Virus record (IMG/VR): IMGVR_UViG_3300025513_000009
Coordinates: 1 to 55,742 of that record
Reading direction: 5' to 3' (one strand)
Length of the DNA stretch: 55,742 nt
From: a virus
Lineage: Duplodnaviria > Caudoviricetes
Part shown: piece by piece, positions 13,756-39,109 of the stretch
Position numbering within the stretch: the stretch's first letter is position 1
Layout of the letters: every line of letters starts with the position of its first letter
Made by a program: the position numbers and the translations under genes
Notes under the pieces: generated by a model
The model's input: the letters and a program-made list of their open reading frames with translations, nothing else
What the model was told of the DNA's origin: nothing
Databases searched by the model: none

Positions 13756-13767
13756 GTATCCAATCCT

Positions 13768-15342
13768 TTAATAAAAACGTCTGCGTTTTTTATTATATAC
13801 ACTTTCATCGCCCAAGTCAAGCCATGAATTGTCACTGTGTTCTAAGTATCCCCCATTACGTACGTATAGTACTGCTTGTGTTACAGAATCTACTATGTCA
13901 TCATGTGGACCTGAAGGAAATTGTCTACATTCTTCTATAGTTTCTGTTGCCCATACCTTTTTTAGAGGGGCATATATTCTTGCATTGTGAAATAAAGAAC
14001 TAACTGCATATGCTCTAGAAACTTTATCTCTATCTGGTTGATATTCTTGAATAGGTAAGCCAGCTAATCGTAGATCTTGTATTAATGACTGTCCTGAAGC
14101 TTTCTTTTCAATCACTATAGAGTCAGGTCTATGTTTAACATATTTTTCTACCGCTTTTTCTCTTAGTGTGGGGAAATCCCAGCGGCCTTTCTCCATTCCC
14201 AGTAAAACCATGTTGGCTATACTAAGTTCATCTTTTTTAAATATTCCCCATGTAGTGACTACGGAAAAATCTGCAGTAGTTTTAGTAGAAAACGCAGTAT
14301 CCCAGGACTGAATAATAAAATCACAGTCAGGTGGATCTTCGCTTGACCAATCTTGCCAGTACTCTACTGGAATTATGCCACCAGACTCTGATGATGGGGC
14401 CTGTAAGTACAAAGCATCAAACTTAAACGGGGGTGTATTGTTTTTTGTACGTACAATGTCTGCAGTTGTCCAACAAAAACCACCTACTCTGTCAGGTGCA
14501 GGCCAAAACGAGTTTCCAACCTTAGCTTTTGGGTAATCTTTTTCTAAATAACCTTGTTCAACTAAAGTTTTACGTGCTTTTTCTAATTCTTTGGCAGACT
14601 CTGTAGTATTTAACGCAGGTATTCGCACAACATTCCACTTATCTGCTAACGGAGAAGCATCTTGTTGGTTTAATAAGTAACCAGCAAGATCATTTTCGTG
14701 CCATCTTGTCATAACAAGCACAACTTTTCCACCTGGCATAAGTCTTGTACGCAATCCAGAGGAATACCAGTTGTTTAACTGTTCTCTTCGTGTCTTAGAA
14801 TAAGCATCTTGCTCTGATATAGGATCATCAATGACTGCAAGGTGGGCACCAAAACCTGCAATACCAGATCCAGAACCAGCAGCTAAGAAACTTCCTGCTA
14901 CTTTTCCTTCTGTCTCTAGCGCCCAAGAGTTTGCCGCTCTATTATCTTTACGAATTTTTACTTTAGGGAATATAGTCATGAACGCAGTAGTATTAATAAT
15001 ATCTCTTATAGTTCTACCGAACTTAGTAGCTAAGTCATCTGAGTGAGATACTGCTATCTCTTGCCAATAAGGATTACGACCTAAAGCCCACGCAGGAAAG
15101 TAAGTAGATGTGATTAAAGACTTAGATGAACGGGGAGAAACAAAGACCATGAGTCTATCTGTTTCGCCTCTCTCAAGTCCCATCAGTTCGTCACATAGTA
15201 AACGATGATGCGGCCCAACATTGAAGGATGGATTCATAAGCATAACGAATGCCAGTAAATCTTCCCGCGCTTGTTTAACCGCAAGCCTTGTGGCTGCGTC
15301 TCTATCTGCTAATTTATTCTGACTTGATGTAACCAAGGCCAC
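13768..15342 (-). CDS. terL: Terminase large subunit
   Basis: PRSSKS Walker A variant, AVIDDP Walker B, MTRWH, and the nuclease motifs QSWDTA and HDDIVDS. Confidence 0.95.
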   Translation of the reverse strand: MALVTSSQNKLADRDAATRLAVKQAREDLLAFVMLMNPSFNVGPHHRLLCDELMGLERGETDRLMVFVSPRSSKSLITSTYFPAWALGRNPYWQEIAVSHSDDLATKFGRTIRDIINTTAFMTIFPKVKIRKDNRAANSWALETEGKVAGSFLAAGSGSGIAGFGAHLAVIDDPISEQDAYSKTRREQLNNWYSSGLRTRLMPGGKVVLVMTRWHENDLAGYLLNQQDASPLADKWNVVRIPALNTTESAKELEKARKTLVEQGYLEKDYPKAKVGNSFWPAPDRVGGFCWTTADIVRTKNNTPPFKFDALYLQAPSSESGGIIPVEYWQDWSSEDPPDCDFIIQSWDTAFSTKTTADFSVVTTWGIFKKDELSIANMVLLGMEKGRWDFPTLREKAVEKYVKHRPDSIVIEKKASGQSLIQDLRLAGLPIQEYQPDRDKVSRAYAVSSLFHNARIYAPLKKVWATETIEECRQFPSGPHDDIVDSVTQAVLYVRNGGYLEHSDNSWLDLGDESVYNKKRRRFY

Positions 15343-15418
15343 CCCACAAAATTAATTGTGAATATATATCAATGGGTTCTTTGCCTGTGTACGGTTCTAG
15401 GTTTGGTGTTAAAATCAT
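15314..15418 (-). CDS. Possible 34-aa ORF bridging terS and terL
   Basis: ATGA overlap with the terS stop and a GGAG upstream: MILTPNLEPYTGKEPIDIYSQLILWGGLGYIKSE. Confidence 0.45.
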   Translation of the reverse strand: MILTPNLEPYTGKEPIDIYSQLILWGGLGYIKSE

Positions 15419-15879
15419 TTTGTTTCTCCTGATACAATTTTAAGTTTGGGCGTTGCGATTCTTTTAAGACGTTCAACATCTCTTTCAATATCTTCCTCTG
15501 AGTTACCAGATGCGAAGGCATTCATGATAGTTGTTTCGTTAACTGTCTTCTCTGTCCACAGTGCTTTATGTTTACCCAATAGTTCTAGGCTTCGAATGGC
15601 GGCATTGAAGTCACCCTCTTGTTCTGTTCGATCCGCTATTCTCACTAAGCGTCTCAAGATATCATCCGAGTCAATTGCTGTTCTCTTAAATGATTCTTCT
15701 TTTAGTTCTTCAATACGTTTGCGGATTGCCTCGTGCTTAAGAAATTTGTACGCATTTCGTTCGGCAGAGAGCTTACCGTATCCAGCACGCTTTGCAGCGG
15801 CTATCGCGTTAAGATCTTTAATGAACTCCGTGCAGAAGATTTCCTGGCGGTCTGTCAACCCCTTATCATTCTTTGCCAT
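15415..15879 (-). CDS. terS: Terminase small subunit
   Basis: LTDRQEIFCTEF...NAIAAAKRAGY...LELLGKH. Start taken at MAKN (15879), 6 nt below a TATAAT. Confidence 0.9.
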   Translation of the reverse strand: MAKNDKGLTDRQEIFCTEFIKDLNAIAAAKRAGYGKLSAERNAYKFLKHEAIRKRIEELKEESFKRTAIDSDDILRRLVRIADRTEQEGDFNAAIRSLELLGKHKALWTEKTVNETTIMNAFASGNSEEDIERDVERLKRIATPKLKIVSGETK

Positions 15880-15885
15880 AAAAAA

Positions 15886-15914
15886 ATTATAACATACCAC
15901 CCTTCCCTTAACAA
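15886..15914 (-). promoter_or_regulatory. terS promoter, apparently leaderless
   Basis: TTGTTA-17-TATAAT-6 nt-ATG with no Shine-Dalgarno. Confidence 0.6.
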
Positions 15915-15967
15915 GTGCTTGTATGGTAGCATTATGTTAACTCGTTTCACGCGAGTCTCCTGTAATA

Positions 15968-16009
15968 GAGGGGGCTTTAAAACATCGCCCTCACTCGATG
16001 TGCCCCCTC
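15968..16009 (+). other. Nested stem-loop in the divergent intergenic region
   Basis: Outer stem GAGGGGGC/GCCCCCTC and inner stem ACATCG/CGATGT. Confidence 0.6.
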
Positions 16010-16032
16010 GACTAAACAGGCAAGGAGATCCC

Positions 16033-16236
16033 ATGTATAAACTTCACCGCATTATTACAGAAGAAAAATTAAAAAGGAATACCGAGCGCCTACTTAAAGT
16101 CCTATTCAATGCCATGAGTCATAAACAAATTATGCGGATGCTTATTGATTACTTTGTAGCAAGGAGGGGCACGCGAAATTCTAACAGGCCTGATCTGGAA
16201 CTACGCACCCTGATACGTAAAAGAAAAAAAGTCTAA
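16033..16236 (+). CDS. Small basic hypothetical protein (67 aa)
   Basis: AAGGAG RBS before the ATG at 16033; the longer track ORF overlaps terS antisense. Confidence 0.6.
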   Translation: MYKLHRIITEEKLKRNTERLLKVLFNAMSHKQIMRMLIDYFVARRGTRNSNRPDLELRTLIRKRKKV

Positions 16237-16405
16237 AATTTTGCTAAAATTTTTGGACCTGCATATATATAAGATAAGATTTTCTATATTTTGGGGGTGG
16301 GGGTAAAGATATAAGTCCCCCTAGTCAGTAGATAGGCAAGTTGCTAAAGGCTAAAAAGTTTAGCCATGTCTAAGTTTATATAGTGCCGTATATCGCCATT
16401 CTACC

Positions 16406-16450
16406 TGCGACATAATGCCGATTGCTATTGATAACCTTATTTGATCTAAT
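16406..16450 (+). promoter_or_regulatory. Early promoter 1 with RegA-like box
   Basis: TGCGACATAATGCCGA abutting TTGCTA-17-TCTAAT. Confidence 0.6.
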
Positions 16451-16474
16451 AGATTTAGAAATGAGGTAATAACC

Positions 16475-16666
16475 ATGACAATACTTTTAAAAGAAAGATC
16501 ACGCGCCAGGCTCAGAGTACTAATCAGAAGCCACACACGCAAGGCGAATAGCCCGACCGAGTTCAAGATATGGCAGGGGCAGGAAATGATTAACAAATAC
16601 GCGACTGCAACAAAACCGACCACTAGGTTTAAACGCCAATGGTTCGCGAGAGCTGCGGCAATATAG
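16475..16666 (+). CDS. Early basic hypothetical protein
   Basis: 63 aa, GAGGT RBS, downstream of promoter 1. Confidence 0.6.
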   Translation: MTILLKERSRARLRVLIRSHTRKANSPTEFKIWQGQEMINKYATATKPTTRFKRQWFARAAAI

Positions 16667-16681
16667 CACAGGAGACTATGC

Positions 16682-16704
16682 GATAAGGGGTAATGCCCCT
16701 TATC
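16682..16704 (+). other. Perfect 9-bp hairpin
   Basis: GATAAGGGG-TAATG-CCCCTTATC. Confidence 0.6.
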
Positions 16705-16712
16705 AGATGGTC

Positions 16713-16756
16713 TGCGACAATACGCCGATTGACTAATCACCGATTGGTGGTACAAT
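16713..16756 (+). promoter_or_regulatory. Early promoter 2 with RegA-like box
   Basis: TGCGACAATACGCCGA abutting TTGACT-16-TACAAT. Confidence 0.75.
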
Positions 16757-16812
16757 CAGATCAGAAATACAGATGCGTGAAAATCGTAGGGCAGACAACG
16801 CCTTTAAAAAGG

Positions 16813-16856
16813 TGCGACCTTATGCCACAGGGGTGCGACACTATACCATATTGACA
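16813..16856 (+). promoter_or_regulatory. Tandem RegA-like boxes followed by TTGACA
   Basis: TGCGACCTTATGCCAC (16813) and TGCGACACTATACCAT (16834), 21 bp apart, then TTGACA at 16851. Confidence 0.6.
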
Positions 16857-16868
16857 CTATATACGACC

Positions 16869-16883
16869 GAACAAACCACGAAC
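16869..16883 (+). promoter_or_regulatory. Alphaproteobacterial-type LexA (SOS) box
   Basis: GAAC-AAACCAC-GAAC, i.e. GAAC-N7-GAAC, 9 bp upstream of a TATAAT at 16893. Confidence 0.6.
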
Positions 16884-16911
16884 AAATATACATATAATAA
16901 GACTAAGCAAC

Positions 16912-16965
16912 TGCGACACATTGGCATAAAATAGTTGTTGACATTTCAAATGCATTTGCCATAAT
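16912..16965 (+). promoter_or_regulatory. Early promoter 3 with RegA-like box
   Basis: TGCGACACATTGGCAT, 10 bp, then TTGACA-16-CATAAT. Confidence 0.7.
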
Positions 16966-17044
16966 GAAAGCAGATAACCAATAAAAAACAACTTAGTTAT
17001 TAACTAATAACCTTTTATTATTATCTAATTAAGATACTAAAAAA

Positions 17045-17088
17045 TGCGACACTTTGGCAATTGACTTTAAAAACCAACCTGCCATACT
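17045..17088 (+). promoter_or_regulatory. Early promoter 4 with RegA-like box
   Basis: TGCGACACTTTGGCAA abutting TTGACT-16-CATACT. Confidence 0.75.
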
Positions 17089-17119
17089 GAAGGAACAATA
17101 AAACTAAAAGGGGTACAAA

Positions 17120-17311
17120 ATGGCTAACAGGACTTTATATATGGACGCGAACGGCAAGATTAAAAAGGGGTTTGAGCATGGACAAAAATGGCAATTCGGA
17201 TCACTTGGTAAAGAAGCTACGTATTGTGAGGGCATATACGAGTTAAGACAAAAAGCAAAAGATCATCCTGAATATGATTACTGGATGAGAATGGCAAGTA
17301 CAAGGGTGTGA
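17120..17311 (+). CDS. Early hypothetical protein
   Basis: 63 aa, AGGGG RBS, own promoter. Confidence 0.7.
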   Translation: MANRTLYMDANGKIKKGFEHGQKWQFGSLGKEATYCEGIYELRQKAKDHPEYDYWMRMASTRV

Positions 17312-17350
17312 CAAAATGCCGATTGACTTAACGAATCAATTTGCTAAGAT
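17307..17350 (+). promoter_or_regulatory. Early promoter 5 with RegA-like box
   Basis: TGTGACAAAATGCCGA abutting TTGACT-16-TAAGAT. Confidence 0.75.
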
Positions 17351-17382
17351 AAAAACAGATTAACAAAAAGAGGTAATAAACT

Positions 17383-17649
17383 ATGACTAAGAAGTATTTA
17401 TATGTAGTATATGGCGGTGATTTACCACGACCATATGTTTATGGAAATGTAAAAGCATGTTGGGAGACTGTTCAAAAGTTTATGGACACACCCTATCATT
17501 TTAGAGAAGGCAAACCAATGTTAGCTTTAACGTATAGCAGATTTAACTCTATACTTAAAAAAGAGAATAATATGCTAGTATATCCATCAACACATGCTAG
17601 CAATGATAGCATAAACGTAGACACAGTAGAATTGAATGAGGTATTTTAA
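17383..17649 (+). CDS. Early hypothetical protein
   Basis: 88 aa, GAGGT RBS. Confidence 0.7.
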   Translation: MTKKYLYVVYGGDLPRPYVYGNVKACWETVQKFMDTPYHFREGKPMLALTYSRFNSILKKENNMLVYPSTHASNDSINVDTVELNEVF

Positions 17650-17862
17650 ATGAGTAAAAGAAAAAAGATAGAACAACTGATTGCTAAGATAAACGAAATA
17701 TATGTCAAGGATTATGAAGTAGAGCATAATTCATCATATACATATCCATATAGGATACGATCTAATAACGGATCGCATGATGTCACCGAAAGACTGACAC
17801 CTACCGAATGTTTGACATGGTGTAAGGGTGTGCTTCATGTAGCATGGGATATCGAAAGATGA
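17650..17862 (+). CDS. Early hypothetical protein
   Basis: 70 aa, GAGGT RBS, abuts the previous gene. Confidence 0.7.
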   Translation: MSKRKKIEQLIAKINEIYVKDYEVEHNSSYTYPYRIRSNNGSHDVTERLTPTECLTWCKGVLHVAWDIER

Positions 17863-17902
17863 TATTCAATAAACAGGTTGACTTGGAAAAAGATTATTTC
17901 CG

Positions 17903-17947
17903 TGCGACACAATGGCTTATTGCAATTACTTATATGATTGCTATAAT
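17903..17947 (+). promoter_or_regulatory. Early promoter 6 with RegA-like box
   Basis: TGCGACACAATGGCTT-A-TTGCAA-16-TATAAT. Confidence 0.75.
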
Positions 17948-17981
17948 AATTTTATTAACTAACATATAGTGAGGTACTAAT

Positions 17982-19397
17982 ATGACAGAAGCAATCGATA
18001 CTAAAAGTTTGTTAAGACTTATGCGATCTAGGACTTATAGTACTAGCTCAAGCAGTAGTCTTTCATACTACGAAGTTTATAGACGATTCAGAATAAAATA
18101 CCTGACACGACATGACTTACTTGATAGGGAAAAGTTAGAGCTGCATTTAAGGGAAACAGTTGGTCGCCCTAATGAGGATTTAGGTGCGTTATTTTCTAGG
18201 ATATCAGCATTTACTAGAATAATACACGATCATTGTACTGCTAGGGGCTTCAATGTATCAAGACATTCTAATCTATTATGGAGTATGCGATCTACTACCC
18301 CGTTATCTGAAGCGTCTGACTATGACTTAAGTCAATGTGAAGATTGTGACGGATATGACAACTATGATGAAATGATATTCATTGAGGGATCAGGTGAGAT
18401 AAGAGTCTGTCAAAGTTGTTGTGACGGAGATTACAGTTATTCAGAGCATGACGGAATGTATTATCATAACGACGATTACCCTGACTATGATGATGAGTTT
18501 GATGACGAACGTGATGAAACAGATATAGATGAATACGGCAAACACTATTATAAAACATGTGTAGTTAACTTCATGCAAGGTCGTGGCTTAACAACAGGGT
18601 GGATCAATGAGGGCATGAGGTTGCCAAGTGATGACAAAGATGAGATGCTTATGGGACTTGAATCTGAATTTAGATTGAGGGACGACCATGATCTAGAAGA
18701 TGTAGTATCAGATATACATTCACAAATGAAAGGGTTTGCGATTGTAAAAAATGACGGCTCATTAGGGGATGACGATACAGATAGTGGGGAGATTGTGACT
18801 ATACCTGCCACCCTAAAAGCACAAAAATATATGTGGTCTAAATTCTGTGAAAGTAAACATAACTTTGCAGATAGAATAAAAGCATGGCACTCTAGAGATT
18901 GTGGCATACATATTCATATAGATAGGAGATCAGTCACACCATTAGAAATCGGTAAGCTATTAATATTTATAAATGGTGGGCATAATGCTGACTTTATAAA
19001 TCAGTTTGCTGGTAGAGGATCGGCTTCATACTGTGAAAGATCACCCAAGTCAGTCAAGGAAGGGCTTGAGAGTTCTAGAAATAGATATGAAGCTCTTAAT
19101 AATGGCAATTCTAAAACTATAGAGTTCAGAATATTTAGAGGAAACATTGCCAAGCAAGGGGTACTAAGGAACTTAGAATTTGTCCATGCCTTAGTTCAAT
19201 TTGTAAAGCAATCTGCCTATGATAATCATTCAGATAGGATAATTGAACTGACCTATGAAAAATTTGCAGACTATGTGAGTATGCAAAACAATAGAGGTGT
19301 GTATCCATACCTTTATAAGTGGCTTGTGAAGAATGGCTTTTCACAACCTAAGATAAACAACACTATAAGAGAAAATGAGGTAAACGAATGTGCTTAA
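17982..19397 (+). CDS. Putative amidoligase (COOH-NH2 ligase fold) with Cys-rich N-terminal region
   Basis: GLESE, DGSL, EIVT, CGIHIH, RYEALN and TIEFR motifs; CxxC pairs upstream. Confidence 0.85.
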   Translation: MTEAIDTKSLLRLMRSRTYSTSSSSSLSYYEVYRRFRIKYLTRHDLLDREKLELHLRETVGRPNEDLGALFSRISAFTRIIHDHCTARGFNVSRHSNLLWSMRSTTPLSEASDYDLSQCEDCDGYDNYDEMIFIEGSGEIRVCQSCCDGDYSYSEHDGMYYHNDDYPDYDDEFDDERDETDIDEYGKHYYKTCVVNFMQGRGLTTGWINEGMRLPSDDKDEMLMGLESEFRLRDDHDLEDVVSDIHSQMKGFAIVKNDGSLGDDDTDSGEIVTIPATLKAQKYMWSKFCESKHNFADRIKAWHSRDCGIHIHIDRRSVTPLEIGKLLIFINGGHNADFINQFAGRGSASYCERSPKSVKEGLESSRNRYEALNNGNSKTIEFRIFRGNIAKQGVLRNLEFVHALVQFVKQSAYDNHSDRIIELTYEKFADYVSMQNNRGVYPYLYKWLVKNGFSQPKINNTIRENEVNECA

Positions 19398-20371
19398 TAG
19401 TAAAAACAAATGACTCTTCAGAAGTCAAAGAAAACTTAATCAAGTCTGCATATGAAAATAATTCAGACGGATTTGGTGTCATGTATCTAATGAAAGATAG
19501 AATACATACACAAAAGATTGTGCCTAAATCTTCAGATGACATTGTGCAACTGTTCGATAAGTACAAAGATTTAAAAATTCCAATGGGATTACATTGGAGA
19601 TACACAACAGTAGGTGAAACTAACAAAAGTAATTGCCACCCCTTTAGTGTATTGACTATGGAAAAACATGGTCGTGATTTATTCTTGATGCACAATGGTG
19701 CAAAGCTACCTACCCCAATGCTTGACAAAGATAAATCAGACACACACCAGTATATAAAGTATGTATTGCGACCTATGTTAGCCAACAATCCTGATCTACT
19801 ATACAATAGAGATTGGCAGGACATGATAGAGGATAGTATCGGAAGCGATAAGTTATTATTCCTAGATAGTAAGACAAAGAAGTTTACTACTATCAATGAA
19901 GATCAAGGTGAAACTTTAGATAATGATATGTGGCTATCCAATACATACTCACTATCAAGGGGGGTTGGTATGGATTATGATCCTGTGACTGACACCTTGT
20001 CAGATAACAAACCACTATCAGTATATGGTAATACATATGCTAATGGTACATGGTTTAATAAGAAAGTTAAAGGTATGTATGATGATAATATGTACGGCTA
20101 TGATGGTTGGGATGGTGGAATGTATGACTACGACACCGAAACTTTCAAACCATTAAGTAAGACATTCGATATAGCTAGAGATGGAGAGTTGTATAACCTA
20201 TCTGATTTGTATGGGGCAACCCATGATGAAATAGATGAGGTCATTAAGAGAAATCCTAGTGGGACTGCTGAACTATTGCAAGACCTAGTATATGCTACTG
20301 ATGATGAAATCTATGACAGTATATCTGAACTGCAACAACTTAAGAATAATAAAAAGAAGGGAAACAAATAA
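19388..20371 (+). CDS. Class II (Ntn) glutamine amidotransferase
   Basis: N-terminal Met-Cys, NSDGFG, HWRYTT.G, NCHPF, HNG and SDT. Confidence 0.9.
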   Translation: MCLIVKTNDSSEVKENLIKSAYENNSDGFGVMYLMKDRIHTQKIVPKSSDDIVQLFDKYKDLKIPMGLHWRYTTVGETNKSNCHPFSVLTMEKHGRDLFLMHNGAKLPTPMLDKDKSDTHQYIKYVLRPMLANNPDLLYNRDWQDMIEDSIGSDKLLFLDSKTKKFTTINEDQGETLDNDMWLSNTYSLSRGVGMDYDPVTDTLSDNKPLSVYGNTYANGTWFNKKVKGMYDDNMYGYDGWDGGMYDYDTETFKPLSKTFDIARDGELYNLSDLYGATHDEIDEVIKRNPSGTAELLQDLVYATDDEIYDSISELQQLKNNKKKGNK

Positions 20372-21117
20372 TGACATGGACTTATAAAGTAAAACCTATA
20401 GCTATGCAAAAGCAAATGATTATGGGATTATGTTTATCAACAAGAAGAAACTTTGTTATGTTTAAGAAAGACAGAAGTTATGTATTTGTTGATAAAGATT
20501 TACGAAATGCTAGAGCATTTAAAGATGAGAGTTTGCAGAGATATGCAAAAGGTGTAGCTGAAAGCCTTGAATCACAGGTAAATATGAAAGATATATCTTG
20601 GGGCATCGCCAAAATTATGCCACCTCATATACCTTACACCCATAGATTTAAGATTGTCGATACTGATGAATCAACTATCACCAAAATTAAACAGCAGATC
20701 AAGGAGTTAAAGTTTGTGGATAACCATGAATCAAAGTATATCTTGATTGCGACAGGCACTAAGATAAACCATGCCGAATTTAATTCCTTAGTGGTAGACA
20801 AACCTGAGTATAAAATACACAGGAGAATATTAACTAAGCCGAATGTATGGCGATCATATAAGTATCTATATCCTGCCGTGAAAAAGAATATGCCTTTCTT
20901 CAACAGGGCATATATAAATTCAAGGGATGTGACAACTTCTGAGTACAGTATGCCCAATGGTATACCTCATGACCTGAAGGCAATGATATTCCATACTGGT
21001 AGAAATGAGTTTGAATTGCTACCGACAGATAACATTGAACAACTGTCCAAAGATTCAGACAAAACTTTATCATGGGATGAACACGGATATAAGACACCTT
21101 TAATTTCAACAAATTAG
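20371..21117 (+). CDS. Hypothetical protein
   Basis: 248 aa, coupled to the GATase stop. Confidence 0.7.
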   Translation: MTWTYKVKPIAMQKQMIMGLCLSTRRNFVMFKKDRSYVFVDKDLRNARAFKDESLQRYAKGVAESLESQVNMKDISWGIAKIMPPHIPYTHRFKIVDTDESTITKIKQQIKELKFVDNHESKYILIATGTKINHAEFNSLVVDKPEYKIHRRILTKPNVWRSYKYLYPAVKKNMPFFNRAYINSRDVTTSEYSMPNGIPHDLKAMIFHTGRNEFELLPTDNIEQLSKDSDKTLSWDEHGYKTPLISTN

Positions 21118-21135
21118 CATAGCTAATACCTCACG

Positions 21136-21180
21136 AAAAGAGGGGGCACGGCAAAACTGAATTGCAATGTCCCCTTTTTT
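21136..21180 (+). terminator. Probable intrinsic terminator of the early operon
   Basis: AAAAGAGGGGGCA...TGTCCCC followed by TTTTTT. Confidence 0.55.
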
Positions 21181-21189
21181 CCCAATATA

Positions 21190-21390
21190 ACACCGTGAAA
21201 TCACCGACAAACCCCGAACCACACCTGTTTAGGGGATGTCACACCCTCACCCTTACATATATATATATATATATATAATTAATTATATATAAAAAAATAA
21301 TATAATTAAAATCGTATATTAGAGGGGTATGGGGGTGGGTAGTACGATAAGGGTGTAATACGAGGTCATTCGGTGATCGTGCGGTATTAC
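21190..21390. other. Putative replication origin
   Basis: 56-bp A/T-only core (21257-21312, including (AT)10) flanked by a C-rich left arm and a G-rich right arm with inverted repeats. Confidence 0.55.
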
Positions 21391-21395
21391 ATTAC

Positions 21396-21439
21396 TGCGA
21401 CACAATAGTTGTTGCATTTAATAATAGAAGGAGTATAAT
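21396..21439 (+). promoter_or_regulatory. Promoter 7 with RegA-like half box
   Basis: TGCGACACAATAGTTG abutting TTGCAT-16-TATAAT. Confidence 0.65.
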
Positions 21440-21644
21440 GATGACTATGATTAACAGACTAAAGACGGAACTAAGTACACTACAAACGGATCTATCTCAA
21501 CAGATAGAAGGGTACGAGAGATTGCCAGTCGGAACAAGTGATGAACGAATCACGCAAGGGTGGCTTGAGGCGGTCGAGTATATAGATAAACATATACAAA
21601 GGCTAGAAGAAGATGAACAACAGGAGGACTTTGACAATGGGTAA
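21438..21644 (+). CDS. Hypothetical protein
   Basis: 68-aa helical ORF; exact start uncertain. Confidence 0.65.
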   Translation: MMTMINRLKTELSTLQTDLSQQIEGYERLPVGTSDERITQGWLEAVEYIDKHIQRLEEDEQQEDFDNG

Positions 21645-21831
21645 GGTAAAAGAATGGATGCAAGATCAGGTAGAGAACATGACTGATGTAGAACTACAAG
21701 AGTATGAAGATACTAATGCACACCAAGATGATTTGTTTAGTGTGTTAGTTAATGCACACAAAGAATCAATGACATGGTACGAACATGAAGGACAGTTCGT
21801 AAGGAAGGATAAGAATGAAAAAGATAGTTAA
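21637..21831 (+). CDS. Hypothetical acidic protein
   Basis: MGKVKEWM start after AGGAGG. Confidence 0.65.
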   Translation: MGKVKEWMQDQVENMTDVELQEYEDTNAHQDDLFSVLVNAHKESMTWYEHEGQFVRKDKNEKDS

Positions 21832-21852
21832 CCCAATGGAGGAGGATAGAAA

Positions 21853-21936
21853 ATGAACTACGAAAGTATAACTGTAATGCTACTGACTATGACAATAATT
21901 ATTTGTCTAGCATTTACTTTAGGGTACTTCATATGA
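21853..21936 (+). CDS. Small single-TM peptide (27 aa)
   Basis: GGAGGA RBS; MNYESITVMLLTMTIIICLAFTLGYFI. Confidence 0.5.
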   Translation: MNYESITVMLLTMTIIICLAFTLGYFI

Positions 21937-22106
21937 CTGGCTTAGTATTATTTTTTATGCTGGTGTTTATGGGTAGTCTAGGATATGGAGGTGCATATCT
22001 CCATATGAATAGGCAGATAAAGATGAGGGAAATTGAAATCAATATACTGCATATGTATATAAGTAAGGAGTTAGGCAATGAAGAAAGAAGAGCAGTTGGA
22101 ATATGA
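21933..22106 (+). CDS. Small membrane protein
   Basis: ATGA overlap; hydrophobic N-terminus. Confidence 0.55.
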   Translation: MTGLVLFFMLVFMGSLGYGGAYLHMNRQIKMREIEINILHMYISKELGNEERRAVGI

Positions 22107-22227
22107 AAGACTTAAAGGTAATGCTATCAATGGTACTATGAATTTTGATAAGGCTATGCGTTACTTCACACTAGCAAGGAAGTATAAGGAAGGTAAGGCT
22201 AATGACAAAACAAGAAACACAAAATAG
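22078..22227 (+). CDS. Hypothetical 49-aa protein
   Basis: TAAGGAG RBS; fills the gap between neighbouring genes. Confidence 0.5.
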   Translation: MKKEEQLEYERLKGNAINGTMNFDKAMRYFTLARKYKEGKANDKTRNTK

Positions 22228-22396
22228 AGAGTTCTCTAAAGGGCTTATACAATTCATGCGTAAGTATATACCACTAGGTCAGGTCGAAAGATTACTAGCC
22301 GAGAGGTTGGCTCAATGTTATGATGCGTTTCCTCAAACAGAGATGCAAGACAGGGAACAGTTTCAGAAATGGTTGAGTATACACAATGAAGGATGA
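22202..22396 (+). CDS. Hypothetical protein
   Basis: 64-aa ORF in the early/middle cluster. Confidence 0.6.
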   Translation: MTKQETQNREFSKGLIQFMRKYIPLGQVERLLAERLAQCYDAFPQTEMQDREQFQKWLSIHNEG

Positions 22397-22610
22397 GGAT
22401 ATGGTATGGGATATAGCCTATTGGAATCCCTCCGACAAAGTGACGGACGCACAGCTAGATAGATTCCTATTAGACGGAACAGGATCGTCAGTAGAGATGC
22501 CAAAGTATTATACTGTCCGACAGTTTGTCGAAGCATATAACAATCAAGAGATAACAGACATGGGTTGGTTGTATCACACTGACCGACACAATGACAGGAG
22601 AATAAAATGA
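22386..22610 (+). CDS. Hypothetical protein
   Basis: 74 aa, overlapping the previous stop. Confidence 0.6.
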   Translation: MKDEDMVWDIAYWNPSDKVTDAQLDRFLLDGTGSSVEMPKYYTVRQFVEAYNNQEITDMGWLYHTDRHNDRRIK

Positions 22611-22756
22611 TAATGAAGTTAGTATATAAGATATTAAATATTAAACCAACACCACGCTCTACTAAAATGAAATGGGTCTGGCTTGGTATACATTGTAATG
22701 ATGATAAACTAAATAAATTTGTTGACATCAGTAAGAAAATGTGATAACAATAGAGT

Positions 22757-23161
22757 ATGAAACTACCTAAACATATAAGAATCGGAGCATTTAAAATTGA
22801 GTTAGTATGTCTACCTCATAACTTAATGTACGAAATCGGAGAAGCACAAGGTACATTTATAGTCAAGCCACCCTATCAAATCTTTCTAGATAAGGAAATG
22901 ATAGACACGGGTGGGGCTGATGCAATCAATGTGGTACTGCATGAACTATTACATGTAGGTTATTATCAATACCATTTGAAAGATAAGGAAGAAGAGACTA
23001 TAGTTAATTCATTCGGTAACTTTATGACTGAACTCTTATGTCACACAGGGCTAGGAGATTGGATTGCGTTTGAAAAAAACAGAGAAAGGAAAACAAGTGG
23101 AGGAATACCTGTTCGTATACGGAACACTAAAAAGAAACGAAAGACTACACGACCTACTTAG
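22757..23161 (+). CDS. HExxH zinc metallopeptidase-like protein
   Basis: VVLHELLH plus a downstream EEE; TTGACA promoter at ~22722. Confidence 0.7.
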   Translation: MKLPKHIRIGAFKIELVCLPHNLMYEIGEAQGTFIVKPPYQIFLDKEMIDTGGADAINVVLHELLHVGYYQYHLKDKEEETIVNSFGNFMTELLCHTGLGDWIAFEKNRERKTSGGIPVRIRNTKKKRKTTRPT

Positions 23162-23510
23162 ATCACAAGAGTTTATAGATACTGCTACAACAGTGGACGC
23201 GAACTTTAACATGGGAGATCTAGGCAATGCCTACCCTATAGTATTTAGAAGTAACGAAGATGAAGATACATTTAAGTACAAGATAAGGGGCGAGGTTTTT
23301 AAACTGACTAACCCTGCCGTGTACCACTACATAGATAGAATGGAAAAGGGTGCGGCATATAAGATGGTTGACACCATAGTTAGATTAAGCGATAATAAAA
23401 AGATGATAGTAAAGATGTATGTAATGGACGACCTGCCATACAAGCCTAGCTATTTAACTCAAGACAATATTAAATCTAAAAGAAACATACTCGAATGGAG
23501 CAATCAATAA
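23064..23510 (+). CDS. Gamma-glutamylcyclotransferase (AIG2/YtfP family)
   Basis: LFVYGTLK...YP...GEVF...DRME...Y; an alternative GTG start lies at 23097. Confidence 0.85.
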   Translation: MRLKKTEKGKQVEEYLFVYGTLKRNERLHDLLRSQEFIDTATTVDANFNMGDLGNAYPIVFRSNEDEDTFKYKIRGEVFKLTNPAVYHYIDRMEKGAAYKMVDTIVRLSDNKKMIVKMYVMDDLPYKPSYLTQDNIKSKRNILEWSNQ

Positions 23511-23632
23511 TGGGCTTCGAAGAAATATGTAATAGGATCACAGGAGCATTGATGTGGGTAGCTACTTACGGAGTAGCTATTCTTTTCATAGGTTTATTTA
23601 TACAAAACGTAATACTTTAAAAGGAGGACGGC

Positions 23633-23860
23633 ATGACTAAAAAGAAAAAGACATATACGACAGGTGATGATTTCTTAACTGATGAAACACTAGAATTATT
23701 TGACGAGAACATGGACATCAGTGAGTATGTAGATGACCCAAGATTTGACGCAAACGATTACGAATATTTACAGGAGGTACACAGAGATGGGATTCAATCC
23801 AAAGACGTACAATTTATTTCAACAGATAGATATTTCAAACGCCTTAGAAAAGGCGAGTGA
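23633..23860 (+). CDS. Acidic hypothetical protein
   Basis: 75 aa, AGGAGG RBS. Confidence 0.65.
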   Translation: MTKKKKTYTTGDDFLTDETLELFDENMDISEYVDDPRFDANDYEYLQEVHRDGIQSKDVQFISTDRYFKRLRKGE

Positions 23861-24113
23861 TTACATTGACTCAGTTGACAAGGAAGAAGTAAAACTATTT
23901 ATACCAAGCGACAATCCTTTCGCACTTAAGATGAGGATACACCGATATGTAAAAGCATATCGTGAACAGATGTCTAACAAAGATAATGTTGACCACCAAA
24001 AGTATGACATGTTATCTATCAACACATCAGACAAGGGAGTTGAAATCTCTAGCGTCCTCGATAAAATGCAGGACTTAATTATTAAAGATGCAGATACAGG
24101 AGTGGAAATATAA
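23787..24113 (+). CDS. Hypothetical protein
   Basis: MGFNPK start after AGGAGG (the track starts at 23733). Confidence 0.65.
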   Translation: MGFNPKTYNLFQQIDISNALEKASDYIDSVDKEEVKLFIPSDNPFALKMRIHRYVKAYREQMSNKDNVDHQKYDMLSINTSDKGVEISSVLDKMQDLIIKDADTGVEI

Positions 24114-24412
24114 TGGAAGAAGAAGAATATAGATTAGAGTTTGAGAAGGCTATCGAGACATTGAAACCTGCCATACTAGAGGCGGCTGAAGAATACCCTA
24201 CTGATGTAGTGGTGTCAGCTTTGATCGAGGTAGGCATGAGGCTATCACTACTTAAGTATGGTGCTATGGGGTTAGTTGGTTTACTTGCTGACATCCTACA
24301 TACAACAGCTACATCAGGTAAGATGATAGATGAGATGCAAAAGAAAGCAAGTAAGTCAGATCAAGATGTGATGACTGAATTTAAAAATGCAGGAAAGGAT
24401 ACTCAACACTAA
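24113..24412 (+). CDS. Hypothetical protein
   Basis: 99 aa, translationally coupled. Confidence 0.7.
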   Translation: MEEEEYRLEFEKAIETLKPAILEAAEEYPTDVVVSALIEVGMRLSLLKYGAMGLVGLLADILHTTATSGKMIDEMQKKASKSDQDVMTEFKNAGKDTQH

Positions 24413-24657
24413 TGGTAAAAGAAAAAGAAAAAGAAATTACTCTTGAGATTCCTAGTGAGTTACTAGAGACAGACCCTCTTGTACTAGCCGAAGATGAGAA
24501 GGGTATACAAACTATCGTTGCTTATCTACAGGCTACGAGAGAGAACGTGAGACATGCCGAGGCAAGTGGTAAGAGAATTAGTAAAGGGTCTGCGACAAAG
24601 ATAGCACCTAAAAAGTTTGACAAGAACCCACTTGACATGTTACTATCAGAAACATAG
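24412..24657 (+). CDS. Hypothetical protein
   Basis: 81 aa, translationally coupled. Confidence 0.7.
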   Translation: MVKEKEKEITLEIPSELLETDPLVLAEDEKGIQTIVAYLQATRENVRHAEASGKRISKGSATKIAPKKFDKNPLDMLLSET

Positions 24658-24667
24658 GAGAAAATAA

Positions 24668-25845: not shown

Positions 25846-25869
25846 CAAATATTTAAAACAAGATATACT
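25842..25869 (+). promoter_or_regulatory. Sigma70-like promoter for replication genes
   Basis: TTGACA-16-TATACT. Confidence 0.65.
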
Positions 25870-25893
25870 TACAACTTAAATAGGAGACCATAG

Positions 25894-27140: not shown

Positions 27141-27142
27141 TC

Positions 27143-28246: not shown

Positions 28247-28255
28247 TAACATCAA

Positions 28256-28754: not shown

Positions 28755-28776
28755 ATTAACATGGGAGACAAAAGCA

Positions 28777-37885: not shown

Positions 37886-39109
37886 ATGAAAAATAAACTA
37901 ATAGACGCACTAAACGCGGTCATTTCTGCCAAGGGAAACAAGGCAGCAGCTGCCCGAACACTAGGCATTCCGCGCACTACGTTACTCGAACGATTAGAAC
38001 AAGCACAACTCAAAGGGGTTAAGCCCACATTGGTGCCCCCTGATGCGGAGGCTGCACTGATAGAGAAACAATTCGAGCATGACGCAGAGATGCGCATACT
38101 TAAAAGGCAAGTCGAAGTACTAGCTAAAGAAAATGTATCACATCAAAGAATTAAAGATAGCCTTATTAAAGCTGACACGTATGTAGCTAAGCCACCTAAG
38201 TGGTTAACCAAATCATCTCCAGCGAGAGGGGCACCTGGAGTACCTACTATCTTCTTGTCCGACTTCCATTGGGGAGAGGTAGTAGTTAAAGAAGCGGTGG
38301 GCGGTATCAATGAATACGATAGAACCATAGCCTCACGTAGGTTACGTACCGTTATTGAAACCACTATTGACTTATGTACTAACCATATGGTCAACCCAAA
38401 GTATCCTGGAATTGTTGTAGCCCTTGGCGGTGACATGATATCAGGAGACATTCATGATGAGCTAGCCGAGAACAATGATGGCTCCAACATAGAGCATGTA
38501 CTTGATTTAATAGACGAGTTGTCATGGGGTTTAGAAAAGTTTGCCGATGTGTTCGGTAAAGTCTTTGTACCTTGTACCTTTGGTAATCACTCCAGAACGT
38601 ACAAACAATACAGACATAAGCAAGCCGCCAAAACTAACTATGATTGGATGCTATATAACCTATTGTCTAGGCACTTTAAGAATGATGATCGTATTCAGTT
38701 TCAAATTCCTAGTGGATTCGATACTGTATACAAGATCTTTGGTGTAAGTTATTTACTGACACACGGAGATCGCCTAGGTGTAGCAGGTGGTTCAGGTATC
38801 ATAGGTATGCTTGGTCCTATCGCTAGAGGTGTGCAGAAAATTAAGCAAGAGTACAACAATCGAAACAAAACAATTGACTATGTTATCTTGGGCCACTATC
38901 ACCAATACATATCTCTTAAAGGAACGATTGTTAACGGCTCGACTAAAGGGTACGATGAGTATGCTTACTCAAATAGATTCGTATCAGAAAGACCTCAGCA
39001 AGCATTGTGGTTTACACACCCACAATATGGAGTAACCTTTCAAGTTCCTGTAGTAGCGGAAAACTCAGTAGCCGCAAAGTCTAATGACTGGGTACAGTGG
39101 TCTAAGTAA
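37886..39109 (+). CDS. HTH-coiled coil-calcineurin-like metallophosphoesterase
   Basis: Fis-type HTH (GNKAAAARTLGIPRTTL); SDFH, GGD, GNH, HGD and GHYH motifs. Confidence 0.85.
   Translation: MKNKLIDALNAVISAKGNKAAAARTLGIPRTTLLERLEQAQLKGVKPTLVPPDAEAALIEKQFEHDAEMRILKRQVEVLAKENVSHQRIKDSLIKADTYVAKPPKWLTKSSPARGAPGVPTIFLSDFHWGEVVVKEAVGGINEYDRTIASRRLRTVIETTIDLCTNHMVNPKYPGIVVALGGDMISGDIHDELAENNDGSNIEHVLDLIDELSWGLEKFADVFGKVFVPCTFGNHSRTYKQYRHKQAAKTNYDWMLYNLLSRHFKNDDRIQFQIPSGFDTVYKIFGVSYLLTHGDRLGVAGGSGIIGMLGPIARGVQKIKQEYNNRNKTIDYVILGHYHQYISLKGTIVNGSTKGYDEYAYSNRFVSERPQQALWFTHPQYGVTFQVPVVAENSVAAKSNDWVQWSK

What the first reader, a model, noticed from the sequence alone, without database searches (positions are those of the whole stretch)
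16406..21439. Early promoter array with a RegA/PrrA-type box abutting the -35: phage early transcription may read host redox state
Seen: nine same-strand copies of a 16-bp box at 16406 TGCGACATAATGCCGA, 16713 TGCGACAATACGCCGA, 16813 TGCGACCTTATGCCAC, 16834 TGCGACACTATACCAT, 16912 TGCGACACATTGGCAT, 17045 TGCGACACTTTGGCAA, 17307 TGTGACAAAATGCCGA, 17903 TGCGACACAATGGCTT and 21396 TGCGACACAATAGTTG. Seven end 0-1 bp before a -35 hexamer and one sits a helical turn (10 bp) upstream. Six of the seven complete promoters have a 16-bp spacer, and the late promoters lack the box. Established: the alphaproteobacterial RegA/PrrA/ActR/RegR consensus is about YGCGRCRxWWxGNCGC, and RegA activates from sites near the -35 under the redox sensor RegB. 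Inference: these are activator-dependent promoters driven by a host factor present at injection, so the onset of infection could be gated by host energy or redox status. No phage RNAP or obvious early activator is encoded.
Basis: partly seen in the sequence, partly recalled or inferred. Interest (0 to 1): 0.88.

Follow-up and report, generated by a model that had tools for sequence, protein, structure and literature searches.

The report
Palindromic operator beside phage early promoters
A marine phage carries, right against the -35 of its strong early promoters, one well-kept half of a 17-base palindromic protein-binding site that closely fits the published sites of the bacterial redox regulator RegA/PrrA, so early infection may be tuned by a host regulator, although the binding protein and the host are still unknown.

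Summary
Eight same-strand boxes (at most 1 mismatch) lie in 16406-17903, against 0.12 expected. A ninth lies at 21396. Seven boxes sit 0-1 nt from a TTG hexamer, and six of seven complete promoters have 16-nt spacers, all with a TGn extended -10.

New here: the box is the kept half of a 17-bp palindrome, TGCGACA-N3-TGTCGCA. The palindrome is perfect in relatives of HTVC023P-type pelagiphages and in an unrelated complete 45-kb phage, with the same abutment to the -35. Its centre lies near -42.

The palindrome fits the published PrrA string at 11 of 12 specified positions and the RegR and RegA strings. In one small low-GC regA-bearing alphaproteobacterium, the only two near-perfect copies lie upstream of hemA/hemC and a pseudoazurin-like gene.

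- The core promoters are near consensus, so strict activator dependence is unlikely.
- The box is patchy among close relatives.
- It is not enriched genome-wide in regA-bearing genomes.
- The host is unknown.
- The phage does encode a Fis-type HTH protein (37886-39109), but its distribution does not follow the box.

Verdict: a real operator. A host RegA-family binder is the best guess (about 0.4) and is unproven.

The parts
16406..16450 (+). Box 16406-16421, -35 TTGCTA 16422-16427, 17-nt spacer with TGn, -10 TCTAAT 16445-16450; drives the 63-aa ORF 16475-16666.
   Evidence: The relative L009 keeps this -35 and -10 but loses the alternative TTGATA hexamer.
16713..16756 (+). Box 16713-16728, -35 TTGACT 16729-16734, 16-nt spacer with TG, -10 TACAAT 16751-16756.
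   Evidence: 10 of 12 hexamer matches, TG flagged.
16813..16856 (+). Two boxes whose starts are 21 nt apart (16813-16828 and 16834-16849), then TTGACA at 16851-16856. No acceptable -10 follows.
   Evidence: The same paired arrangement stands in L004 and L009.
16912..16965 (+). Box 16912-16927, 10-nt gap, -35 TTGACA 16938-16943, 16-nt spacer with TG, -10 CATAAT 16960-16965.
   Evidence: 11 of 12, the best site in the scan.
17045..17088 (+). Box 17045-17060, -35 TTGACT 17061-17066, 16-nt spacer with TG, -10 CATACT 17083-17088; drives ORF 17120-17311.
17307..17350 (+). Box 17307-17322 (TGTGACA variant), -35 TTGACT 17323-17328, 16-nt spacer with TG, -10 TAAGAT 17345-17350; drives ORFs 17383-17649 and 17650-17862.
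17903..17947 (+). Box 17903-17918, 1-nt gap, -35 TTGCAA 17920-17925, 16-nt spacer with TG, -10 TATAAT 17942-17947; drives the amidoligase-like gene (17982), the GATase-like gene (19388) and ORF 20371.
   Evidence: In alignment A1 of 7 orthologous promoters, TGCGACA, AATG, the TT of the -35, the TG and the -10 positions are invariant while mean column identity is 68%.
21396..21439 (+). Box with a degenerate right half 21396-21411, -35 TTGCAT 21412-21417, 16-nt spacer, -10 TATAAT 21434-21439. It lies after a hairpin plus T-run at about 21130-21175 and opens the next gene block.
   Evidence: A box with the same layout stands in L047.
37886..39109 (+). Phage gene for P0001 (407 aa): an N-terminal Fis-type HTH (residues 14-39) fused to a metallophosphoesterase-type 'exonuclease'. 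It has its own promoter-like site at 37833. It is a candidate rival binder.
   Evidence: Pfam HTH_8 27.3 bits against a cut-off of 22. phrog_284, E 4.9e-44. 385 relatives in viral contigs.

Best explanation
Each box is the promoter-distal, strongly kept half (TGCGACA, then 3 mostly A/T bases, then TG.C) of a 17-bp palindromic operator, TGCGACA-N3-TGTCGCA, for a dimeric helix-turn-helix protein. The operator is placed so that its last base is the first T of the -35 hexamer, or lies 1 nt before it. With a start site 7 nt after the -10 (inferred), its centre lies near -42 or -43, where a bound dimer can touch sigma region 4 or the alpha subunit.

The promoters themselves are near-consensus sigma-70 promoters with extended -10 elements. 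The bound protein therefore most likely tunes early transcription up or down rather than being indispensable for it.

The binder is most likely a host protein present at injection. The best candidate is the RegA/PrrA/ActR-family response regulator of an alphaproteobacterial host, which would couple early phage transcription to the RegB-sensed redox state.

Shown: the element, its palindromic nature in relatives, its fixed geometry, its conservation, and its fit to published consensus strings. Inferred: protein binding, host origin of the binder, RegA identity, and the direction of the effect.
For: 1. Reality and selection.
- 8 sites against 0.12 expected.
- TGCGACA and AATG are invariant in 7 orthologous promoters whose flanks, -35 hexamers and right halves differ (A1).

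2. Palindrome. Perfect TGCGACA-N3-TGTCGCA copies occur 3-5 times in each of L064, L068, L055 and L179. G419 holds 11 sites at up to 3 mismatches against 0 for the reversed control.

3. Geometry. 155 distinct TGCGACA contexts were collected from 18 box-bearing records. Of these, 45 have a sigma-70-like promoter within 45 nt. The -35 starts 16 or 17 nt after the box start in 32 of the 45, 9-10 nt after it in 8, and 26 nt after it in 2.

4. Host rather than phage factor.
- The same box-to--35 abutment occurs in lineages that share no detectable regulator. Among window ORFs of 40 aa or more, only TerL, portal, PolA and a ferredoxin-like protein, plus ORFs that overlap the TerL and portal genes in other frames, hit the HTVC023P-type box contigs at E below 1e-4.
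- The complete 45.3-kb phage G415 (51.5% GC) has 4 boxes against 0 control and shares only PolA, at 24% identity, with the window.

5. RegA fit. See the consensus strings. PrrA, RegA and RegR have 100% identical HTH motifs (passages), so one box could serve hosts of very different GC content.

6. Alphaproteobacterial setting.
- The nearest isolates by TerL and portal infect Pelagibacter, Roseobacter and Caulobacter.
- The L064-type TerL is 73% identical to that of Pelagibacter phage HTVC027P.
- SAR11 carries RegB/RegA (passage of PMC7318151).
- regA scores over its cut-off in 70 of 151 sampled alphaproteobacterial genomes.

7. Host-side sites.
- In G068 (1.4 Mb, about 35% GC, regA 257 bits against a cut-off of 250), the only two sites at up to 2 mismatches lie 102 nt upstream of 5-aminolevulinate synthase, in the hemC-hemA gap, and about 85 nt upstream of a pseudoazurin-like gene.
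- A TGCG[AT]C hexamer lies 72-102 nt upstream of hemA in 5 of 6 low-GC genomes examined. Five of these carry regA over its cut-off and one (G162) a match below it. Each locus holds only 1-3 such hexamers in 4.2-5 kb.
- hemA and hemC belong to the RegA/PrrA regulons (passages of PMC5359404).
- A one-mismatch copy lies 182 nt upstream of a regB-like/regA-like gene pair in L282.
Against: 1. The -35, spacer, TGn and -10 are near consensus, unlike typical activator-dependent promoters.

2. The box is patchy among close kin.
- G003 and G004 (TerL 73-74% identical, 96-100% complete) have 0 copies of TGCGACANNNTG.
- G003 instead carries TGCCA-N3-TGGCA palindromes about 12 nt upstream of its -35 hexamers. 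This is a symmetric change in both half-sites, as expected if the binder itself differs. G004 has A/T-rich repeats there.
- Only 1 of 80 TerL-kin loci of the L064 type (L179) has palindromes.
- 0 of 5 large contigs of that group have a site at up to 2 mismatches.
- The first 50 kb of isolates HTVC023P and HTVC027P have none.
A regulator with an invariant HTH does not by itself explain this pattern.

3. There is no genome-wide enrichment.
- 152 of 401 sampled alphaproteobacterial genomes have a site at up to 1 mismatch, with per-genome counts like those of the reversed control.
- My hand tally for the 72 genomes with regA at E up to 1e-30 is 56 sites against 72 control sites.
- Around regA itself, in 51 loci, there are 6 sites at up to 3 mismatches against 7 control.
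- The SAR11-like G129 has 1 TGCGACANNNTG against 1 control.

4. The published RegA-family consensus is degenerate. PrrA ChIP-seq gave no strong motif (passage of PMC4263372), so a fit to it carries limited weight.

5. The host of this phage is not known. A genome scan with P0001 found only prophage-like homologs at 38-49% identity, plus one 38-residue fragment at 55%.

6. The hemA and regBA observations were found after the fact, in few and related genomes.
Confidence: 0.4

Rival explanations
1. The operator is bound by a phage-encoded regulator, for example an early shut-off repressor or an early-to-middle switch protein. Such a protein would sit against the -35 of every early promoter and shut transcription down or hold RNA polymerase there. 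The candidates are the HTH_8 protein P0001 (37886-39109) or one of the unassigned small early proteins.
For: - The window encodes a Fis-type HTH protein, the same DNA-binding fold class as RegA (PrrA's domain is called Fis-like in a passage of PMC4263372).
- Patchiness among close relatives, and the symmetric operator variant in G003, resemble exchangeable regulator and operator sets.
- In HTVC023P-type contigs, a roughly 4-kb early module carries the boxes together with genes found in 0-1 of 81 box-less relatives.
- The 88-aa early protein 17383-17649 has homologs in every box-bearing member of the window's own group and none in G003-G005 at E 1e-5.
- Near-consensus promoters suit repression better than activation.
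Against: - P0001 does not follow the box. It is present at 61-64% identity in G003 and G004, which have no box, and in G005. It is absent from complete G415, which has 4 boxes, and from G006-G010.
- The P0001 HTH of G005, which has a TGCGACA-type site, is the most divergent.
- There is no BLAST similarity between the P0001 N-terminus and a RegA HTH.
- No early protein is shared between the window group, the HTVC023P-type box contigs and G415, although their operators are the same.
- Pfam and PHROGs find no DNA-binding family in about 30 early or small proteins tested.
Confidence: 0.27
2. The binder is a host dimeric regulator other than RegA: another Fis-type, TetR-type or similar protein of an unidentified marine host. 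The fit to RegA strings would then be a coincidence of a degenerate consensus.
For: - The same evidence for a host factor as in the best explanation.
- The degeneracy of RegA-family motifs.
- The lack of genome-wide enrichment in regA-bearing genomes.
- One relative, DSL-LC04, is labelled in its record with a gammaproteobacterial host.
Against: - The fit to PrrA is 11 of 12 specified positions, and the napE repeat differs by one base.
- Box copies lie at hemA/hemC, at a cupredoxin gene and at a regBA-like operon.
- No other named regulator was matched, but I ran no motif-library comparison.
Confidence: 0.2
3. No dedicated protein binds the box. It is part of a duplicated promoter cassette, or an upstream promoter element read by RNA polymerase itself, spread by copying within and between phages.
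For: - Promoters are densely packed, 7 in 1.5 kb.
- In the window only one half of the palindrome is kept.
- A/T-rich repeats occupy the same place in G004.
Against: - Perfect 17-bp palindromes occur, some far from any promoter and in arrays.
- The box is G+C-rich, unlike known upstream elements (recalled).
- In A1 the box is invariant while the neighbouring -35 and flanks change, which is not what cassette copying predicts.
- The same element occurs in unrelated phages.
Confidence: 0.08

Closest known systems
Binding sites of the RegA/PrrA/RegR (ActR) redox response regulators of proteobacteria
   Same: Both are imperfect or perfect inverted repeats built on GCG...CGC with a 5-base centre. 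The phage palindrome fits the published strings for PrrA, RegR and RegA and the RegR site quoted as GCGGC-N5-GTCGC. G415 position 17714 holds an exact GCGGC-N5-GTCGC. The known sites usually lie upstream of the -35 (abstract passage of PMC5506826).
   Different: - The known sites are degenerate, with variable half-site spacing, and lie at varied distances from promoters. The phage sites have one fixed spacing and a fixed abutment to the -35.
- In this window only the distal half is kept.
- No binding has been shown.
- The host and its RegA are unknown.
Heptameric inverted repeat of the Paracoccus pantotrophus napE promoter
   Same: It has 7-base arms and a 3-base spacer and differs from the phage palindrome at 1 of 14 specified bases (passage of bioRxiv 10.1101/2023.01.17.523660). 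The preprint says it was suggested to bind a redox-responsive regulator.
   Different: It is a single chromosomal site suggested to act negatively. Its position relative to the -35 was not seen in the passages I read.
Host-regulator boxes in cyanophage promoters (PhoB pho boxes, NtcA sites)
   Same: Phage genes are wired to a host two-component or global regulator, so that infection reads host physiology. Zeng and Chisholm 2012 was seen only as a reference title in PMC12753301. NtcA sites in cyanophages are recalled, not checked.
   Different: Those cases mostly concern auxiliary metabolic genes or promoters without a -35. Here every immediate-early promoter carries the site, on top of a full consensus promoter, and the regulator would sense redox state rather than nutrient supply.
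Phage-encoded regulators acting next to the -35 (lambda cI at PRM, phi29 p4)
   Same: A dimeric site centred near -42 or just upstream of the -35. It can activate or, on strong promoters, repress (recalled textbook knowledge).
   Different: No cognate phage regulator gene could be tied to the box. The same operator occurs in phages that share no regulator.

Membership tests
RegA/PrrA/RegR-type binding site | Sequence fits the published consensus strings | tested here: met
   By-hand comparison with the strings quoted in PMC5506826 and the preprint. The family palindrome fits PrrA at 11 of 12 specified positions, RegR at 9 of 11 with the other two in the variable spacer, and RegA at all positions. 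In the window's own sites the left half fits and the right half only partly (TG.C kept).
RegA/PrrA/RegR-type binding site | The host encodes RegB/RegA | not testable with these tools
   The host is unknown. Context only: the nearest isolates infect alphaproteobacteria, SAR11 has RegB/RegA, and regA is over its cut-off in 70 of 151 sampled alphaproteobacterial genomes.
RegA/PrrA/RegR-type binding site | The same motif marks RegA-regulon promoters in candidate hosts | tested here: inconclusive
   For: the two best sites of G068 lie at hemA/hemC and a pseudoazurin-like gene; a TGCG[AT]C hexamer lies 72-102 nt upstream of hemA in 5 of 6 genomes; L282 has a copy upstream of a regBA-like pair. Against: no enrichment over the reversed control in 401 genomes, near regA in 51 loci, or in G129, G044 and G068 overall.
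RegA/PrrA/RegR-type binding site | Specific binding by the regulator; transcription depends on regA | not testable with these tools
   Needs EMSA or footprinting and regA mutants.
Sigma-70 promoter with extended -10 | A -35 hexamer, 16-18-nt spacer, TGn and a -10 hexamer | tested here: met
   seven complete promoters, six with 16-nt spacers, and TGn in six of the seven (21396 has AG there).
Sigma-70 promoter with extended -10 | A mapped transcription start | tested here: inconclusive
   Two marine RNA runs hold only short contigs of relatives. Contigs cannot show starts.
Class II activator-dependent promoter | Activator site centred near -41.5 together with a weak or absent -35 | tested here: not met
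   The centre is near -42 or -43, taking a start 7 nt after the -10, but the -35 hexamers match TTGACA at 4-6 of 6 positions and the -10 is extended.
Phage regulator with its own operators (immunity-like set), with P0001 as the regulator | The regulator gene and the operators are inherited together | tested here: not met
   P0001 is present without boxes in G003 and G004. Boxes are present without P0001 in complete G415.

The most novel reading that the evidence does not exclude
Several abundant marine phage lineages have independently placed a high-affinity RegA/PrrA operator against the -35 of their immediate-early promoters. These are this 55-kb group, a subset of HTVC023P-type pelagiphage relatives, and an unrelated 45-kb phage. 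If so, the first minutes of infection would be set by the host's RegB/RegA redox signal, meaning respiratory electron flow, oxygen and energy state. The phage copies would then be cleaner than any host site and could define the RegA box of streamlined marine alphaproteobacteria, whose regulons are otherwise opaque.
Probability: 0.28. Interest if true: 0.85.

Novelty: new variant of a known kind. Interest (0 to 1): 0.66.

Why it matters
Phages that read host regulators are known for phosphate and nitrogen status in cyanophages. A redox or energy-state input to the very first promoters of abundant phages of marine heterotrophs would be a new input at a new point in the infection cycle. It would bear on when infections of slow-growing, energy-limited ocean bacteria proceed.

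The claim is also directly testable. The RegA helix-turn-helix is reported to be identical across model species, so purified RegA/PrrA and existing regA or prrA mutants of Rhodobacter or Caulobacter can be used without culturing the unknown host.

Whoever the binder is, the palindrome and its fixed position give a clean handle on early gene control in phage groups that have no described promoters. My searches found none in print.

Tried and rejected
- Nucleotide search of the early region against isolated phages: no match.
- A 46-nt box-plus-promoter query against isolated phages gave only chance hits at E about 10.
- Viral-contig search with the amidoligase-like protein found no relative.
- Genome-contig scan with P0001, looking for host-linked copies: only prophage-like homologs at 38-49% identity, plus one 38-residue fragment at 55%, in diverse Proteobacteria and others.
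- PHROGs and Pfam on about 30 early and small proteins found no DNA-binding family except HTH_8 in P0001.
- Pfam on 8 large minus-strand proteins found no RNA polymerase family.
- The protein atlas gave nothing usable for the 88-aa and 63-aa early proteins.
- Rfam at gathering thresholds gave 0 matches in the window.
- No tRNA genes were found.
- RNA runs: two marine metatranscriptome runs of one study held 6-7% of the sampled words. When laid, they gave 12 short contig pieces 90-99% alike. No starts could be read, and the uncovered parts say nothing.
- Autoregulatory sites near regA: 6 sites against 7 control in 51 loci, so this idea is rejected as a general feature.
- Covariation between the P0001 recognition helix and box type is not supported, because G005 breaks it.
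- A repeated perfect palindrome of another kind in box-less relatives: none found.
- I considered CRP/FNR-type sites and rejected them from recalled knowledge: those sites have even length, and this palindrome is odd (17 bp).
That was wrong. There is no exact terminal repeat; only window 1-199 matches 55031-55229 at 96.5%.
The RegA and PrrA ChIP peak tables of PMC5359404 and PMC4263372, and the 80 genomes of PMC9599517, may bear on the motif comparison and on box distribution. I did not see them.
- The sample includes one unpublished genome (G254). It enters only the tallies, as 1 of 401, and no separate claim rests on it.

Full report
WHAT THE WINDOW IS. The window is a whole virus record of 55,742 bases, with 37-41% G+C over most of its length and no tRNA genes. 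Minus-strand structural genes fill positions 1-16,000; they include the small terminase at 15415, the large terminase at 13768 and the portal at 11341. A plus-strand block runs from 16,400 to 34,900. It starts with small ORFs, followed by an amidoligase-like gene (17982) and a class-II glutamine-amidotransferase-like gene (19388). After a hairpin and T-run near 21,150 come more small ORFs, a GGACT-family gene, an exonuclease, Sak4, a split family-A DNA polymerase, a primase and a class I ribonucleotide reductase. No isolated phage matches at the DNA level. By large terminase and portal, the nearest isolates are Pelagibacter phages HTVC023P and HTVC027P, phage DSL-LC04, Roseobacter phages CRP-901 and CRP-902 and Caulobacter phages, at 30-42% identity.

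THE OBSERVATION. Eight match TGCGACANWWTGCC with at most one mismatch. All eight are on the plus strand within 1.5 kb, against 0.12 expected, and no shuffle reached 8. The ninth (21396) is weaker on its right side but keeps the exact heptamer. The geometry is as described. A TTG hexamer follows at 0 nt at five sites, at 1 nt at two and at 10 nt at one. 16813 is an upstream partner of 16834. Seven sites have a -10, six of them with a 16-nt spacer. In addition, the five promoter-like sites that the generic scan flags with TG before the -10 are all box promoters, and 16406 carries TGn by eye, while 21396 does not. The other near-consensus promoter-like sites in the genome lack the box.

WHAT THE BOX IS. 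A scan of viral contigs for the box joined to TTGAC returned 71 stretches. Of these, 21 hold two or more loose boxes, and 17 of those 21 have 35-43% G+C. Some are close relatives of the window: L004 and L009 are about 85% identical over the terminase, L019, L042, L043 and L054 about 84%, and L016 and L047 about 75%. In orthologous promoters upstream of the amidoligase gene from seven genomes, TGCGACA and the following AATG are invariant, together with the TT of the -35, the TG, the -10 positions and the ribosome-binding site. Mean column identity is 68%, and the -35 hexamer and the right half of the box change (A1).

Other contigs (L064, L028, L029, L068, L055, L039, L048, L179) share only terminase and portal with the window, at 38-42% identity. 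There the element is a perfect 17-bp palindrome, TGCGACA-N3-TGTCGCA, present many times, often directly followed by ATTGACA. The window's box is therefore one strongly kept half-site plus a decayed second half (TG.C). Across 155 distinct contexts, position 11 is T in 127, position 12 is G in 115 and position 14 is C in 105. Among 45 contexts with a promoter nearby, the -35 starts 16 or 17 nt after the box start in 32. Taking a start 7 nt after the -10 (inferred), the palindrome centre lies at about -42 or -43. For 16912 it lies one helical turn further upstream.

WHO BINDS IT: PHAGE OR HOST. In fact gene 37886-39109 (P0001) has an N-terminal Fis-type HTH above Pfam's cut-off, fused to a metallophosphoesterase-type exonuclease, and has 385 relatives in viral contigs. 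Its distribution does not follow the box.
- The syntenic near-complete relatives G003 and G004 keep it at 63-64% identity but have no box.
- G005, whose HTH is the most divergent, has a near-perfect palindrome 10 nt upstream of a TTGACA.
- The complete, unrelated 45.3-kb phage G415 (51.5% G+C) has four boxes against 0 for the control, one of them abutting a TTGACA exactly as in the window. It has no P0001 and shares only a 24%-identical polymerase with the window.
- No small ORF of the window finds a partner in the HTVC023P-type box contigs, G415 or G416.
- The box-linked early genes of the HTVC023P-type contigs find none in the window group.
The same operator and the same geometry, in lineages with no shared regulator, point to a host protein.

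The box is nevertheless patchy. G003 has TGCCA-N3-TGGCA palindromes about 12 nt upstream of its early -35 hexamers, which is a symmetric one-base change in each half. G004 has A/T-rich repeats at that place. Only one of 80 terminase-kin loci of the L064 type has palindromes. Five larger contigs of that group have none. The first 50 kb of isolates HTVC023P and HTVC027P have none. This pattern is easier to explain with exchangeable regulator and operator sets, so I keep a phage-encoded binder as a serious rival.

IS IT RegA? I could read passages of several papers.
- PMC5506826 quotes the consensus strings RegA SSGNVRDNHYSNCSS, PrrA YSCGGC(5)GWCRMA and RegR GNGRCRTTNNGNCGC, and states that the three proteins have identical HTH domains. 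[quoted passage not shown]
- The phage palindrome fits PrrA at 11 of 12 specified positions (A instead of G at position 5). It fits RegR at all nine positions outside the spacer, and it fits RegA throughout.
- A preprint (10.1101/2023.01.17.523660) cites a heptameric inverted repeat in the P. pantotrophus napE promoter that differs from the phage palindrome at one base, and relates it to the RegR site GCGGC-N5-GTCGC.
- G415 position 17714 and a site in G419 contain that RegR core exactly or nearly so.
[quoted passage not shown] PMC4064962 says RegR half-sites are differently spaced and imperfect.

HOST-SIDE TESTS. The L064-type large terminase is 73% identical to that of Pelagibacter phage HTVC027P, so at least that box-bearing group probably infects SAR11 or close relatives. 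SAR11 carries RegB/RegA. I sampled 401 alphaproteobacterial genomes. 152 have a site at up to 1 mismatch, but per-genome counts resemble the reversed-pattern control. regA scores over its cut-off in 70 of 151 genomes. My hand tally over the 72 genomes with a regA match is 56 sites against 72 control sites. Around regA, 51 loci hold 6 sites at up to 3 mismatches against 7 control. Small low-GC genomes with regA show no excess.

Some individual sites are telling.
- In G068 the only two sites at up to 2 mismatches share the form TGCGACA-N3-TGTCTAA. One lies in the hemC-hemA gap, 102 nt before 5-aminolevulinate synthase. The other lies about 85 nt before a pseudoazurin-like gene.
- G162 has a two-mismatch copy 78 nt before hemA.
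- A TGCG[AT]C hexamer lies 72-102 nt before hemA in five of six genomes, each of whose loci has only 1-3 such hexamers.
- hemA and hemC are RegA/PrrA targets in Rhodobacter.
- In L282 a one-mismatch copy lies 182 nt before a gene pair whose best NCBIfam hits are the RegB and RegA families, both below their cut-offs.
These are post hoc observations, few in number and from related genomes. I count them as moderate support.

HOW IT LIKELY WORKS. The promoters are close to consensus in every element. They would be recognised by the host sigma-70 holoenzyme at injection without help (inference from textbook promoter rules). A dimer centred at about -42 could add contacts and boost initiation. On such strong promoters it could instead slow escape or block the -35. 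The paired sites at 16813 and 16834, which have a -35 but no -10, and the arrays in relatives suggest cooperative or titrating binding (inference). If the binder is RegA, phosphorylation by RegB under reducing conditions would change occupancy. The direction of the effect cannot be told from sequence.

KNOWN OR NEW. Host-regulator sites in phage promoters are a known kind; I saw the PhoB case only as a cited title, and NtcA sites are recalled. I found no description of promoter motifs in pelagiphages or of RegA-type boxes in phages, in two searches and in passages of PMC9599517 and PMC12753301. I file this as a new variant of a known kind.

Odds:
- A real operator for a sequence-specific dimeric protein: about 0.9.
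- Host-encoded binder: about 0.6.
- RegA family specifically: about 0.4.
- Actual redox gating of infection: about 0.28.

LIMITS. The host is unknown. No start sites are mapped; the RNA-run contigs were uninformative. No complete box-bearing HTVC023P-type genome was at hand. The consensus comparisons were made by hand against strings quoted second-hand.

Noticed in passing
window 37886-39109 (+): A lone plus-strand gene inside the minus-strand block, with divergent promoter-like sites at 37833 and 37839. It encodes a Fis-type HTH fused to a metallophosphoesterase 'exonuclease'. It is very widespread: 385 relatives in viral contigs, and the best 80 are 59-94% identical.
   Followed up: yes
window 22431-22598, inside ORF 22386-22610: Three box-like elements built on CGACA-N3-TG. 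The middle one, at 22516, is an inner perfect palindrome (CGACA-N3-TGTCG) kept in G001 and G002, with only the central base varying. It could be a coding constraint or an internal binding site.
   Followed up: partly
window 21434-21449; L047 about 6700-6720: The -10 of the 21396 promoter overlaps the first ATG of the ORF. An in-frame ATG lies exactly 7 nt after the -10 in both the window and L047, which suggests a leaderless mRNA, while a Shine-Dalgarno sequence also precedes the first ATG.
   Followed up: no
window 16260-16320 and 21250-21345: Two similar elements: an A/T-rich or (TA)n tract followed by a GGGGGTGGG-type run, each just upstream of a box-promoter block. Function unknown; an origin, a bend or a terminator region are possible.
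   Followed up: no
window 17982-21117 and 23064-23510: An amidoligase-like gene, a class-II glutamine-amidotransferase-like gene and a gamma-glutamyl-cyclotransferase-family (GGACT) gene are the first large early genes. The first two are kept in G001-G005.
   Followed up: partly
window 1-199 and 55031-55229: A 199-bp repeat at 96.5% identity lies within two minus-strand tail-fibre-like ORFs.
   Followed up: yes
L064 3030-3110, 3790-3830, 5180-5215 and matching places in L028, L029, L068 and L055: Runs of an 8-nt unit (GCTTGNNG, 4-8 copies) lie next to G+C-rich hairpins and box palindromes in HTVC023P-type contigs. Unexplained.
   Followed up: no
G003 (L172), contig positions about 41800-41960: The early promoters of a box-less sister phage carry TGCCA-N3-TGGCA palindromes about 12 nt upstream of the -35. 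This is a symmetric variant of the box core.
   Followed up: partly
G005 (L177), contig positions about 21540-21575: Two adjacent TTATCCACA (DnaA-box-like) elements lie in the early intergenic region of this relative. The window has single copies at 20715 and 50410.
   Followed up: no
G415 (L338) 15900-18100: The unrelated 45-kb phage also has repeated TGTGTG-CACACA-type palindromes about 60 nt upstream of its leftward genes, and a cluster of TGTCAC repeats at 16300-16600. This may be a second operator system or an origin.
   Followed up: no
L345 (G068), L348 (G162), L346, L349, L350: A conserved TGCG[AT]C element lies 72-102 nt upstream of hemA in 5 of 6 low-GC alphaproteobacterial genomes with a regA match (five over the cut-off, G162 below it). 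It may be a handle on the RegA regulon of streamlined marine alphaproteobacteria.
   Followed up: partly
HTVC023P (L280) 12400-12560 and 14890-15150: This isolate has its own, different repeated elements (about 35-nt direct repeats) in the region upstream of its large terminase gene, where its box-bearing relatives carry the palindromes.
   Followed up: no
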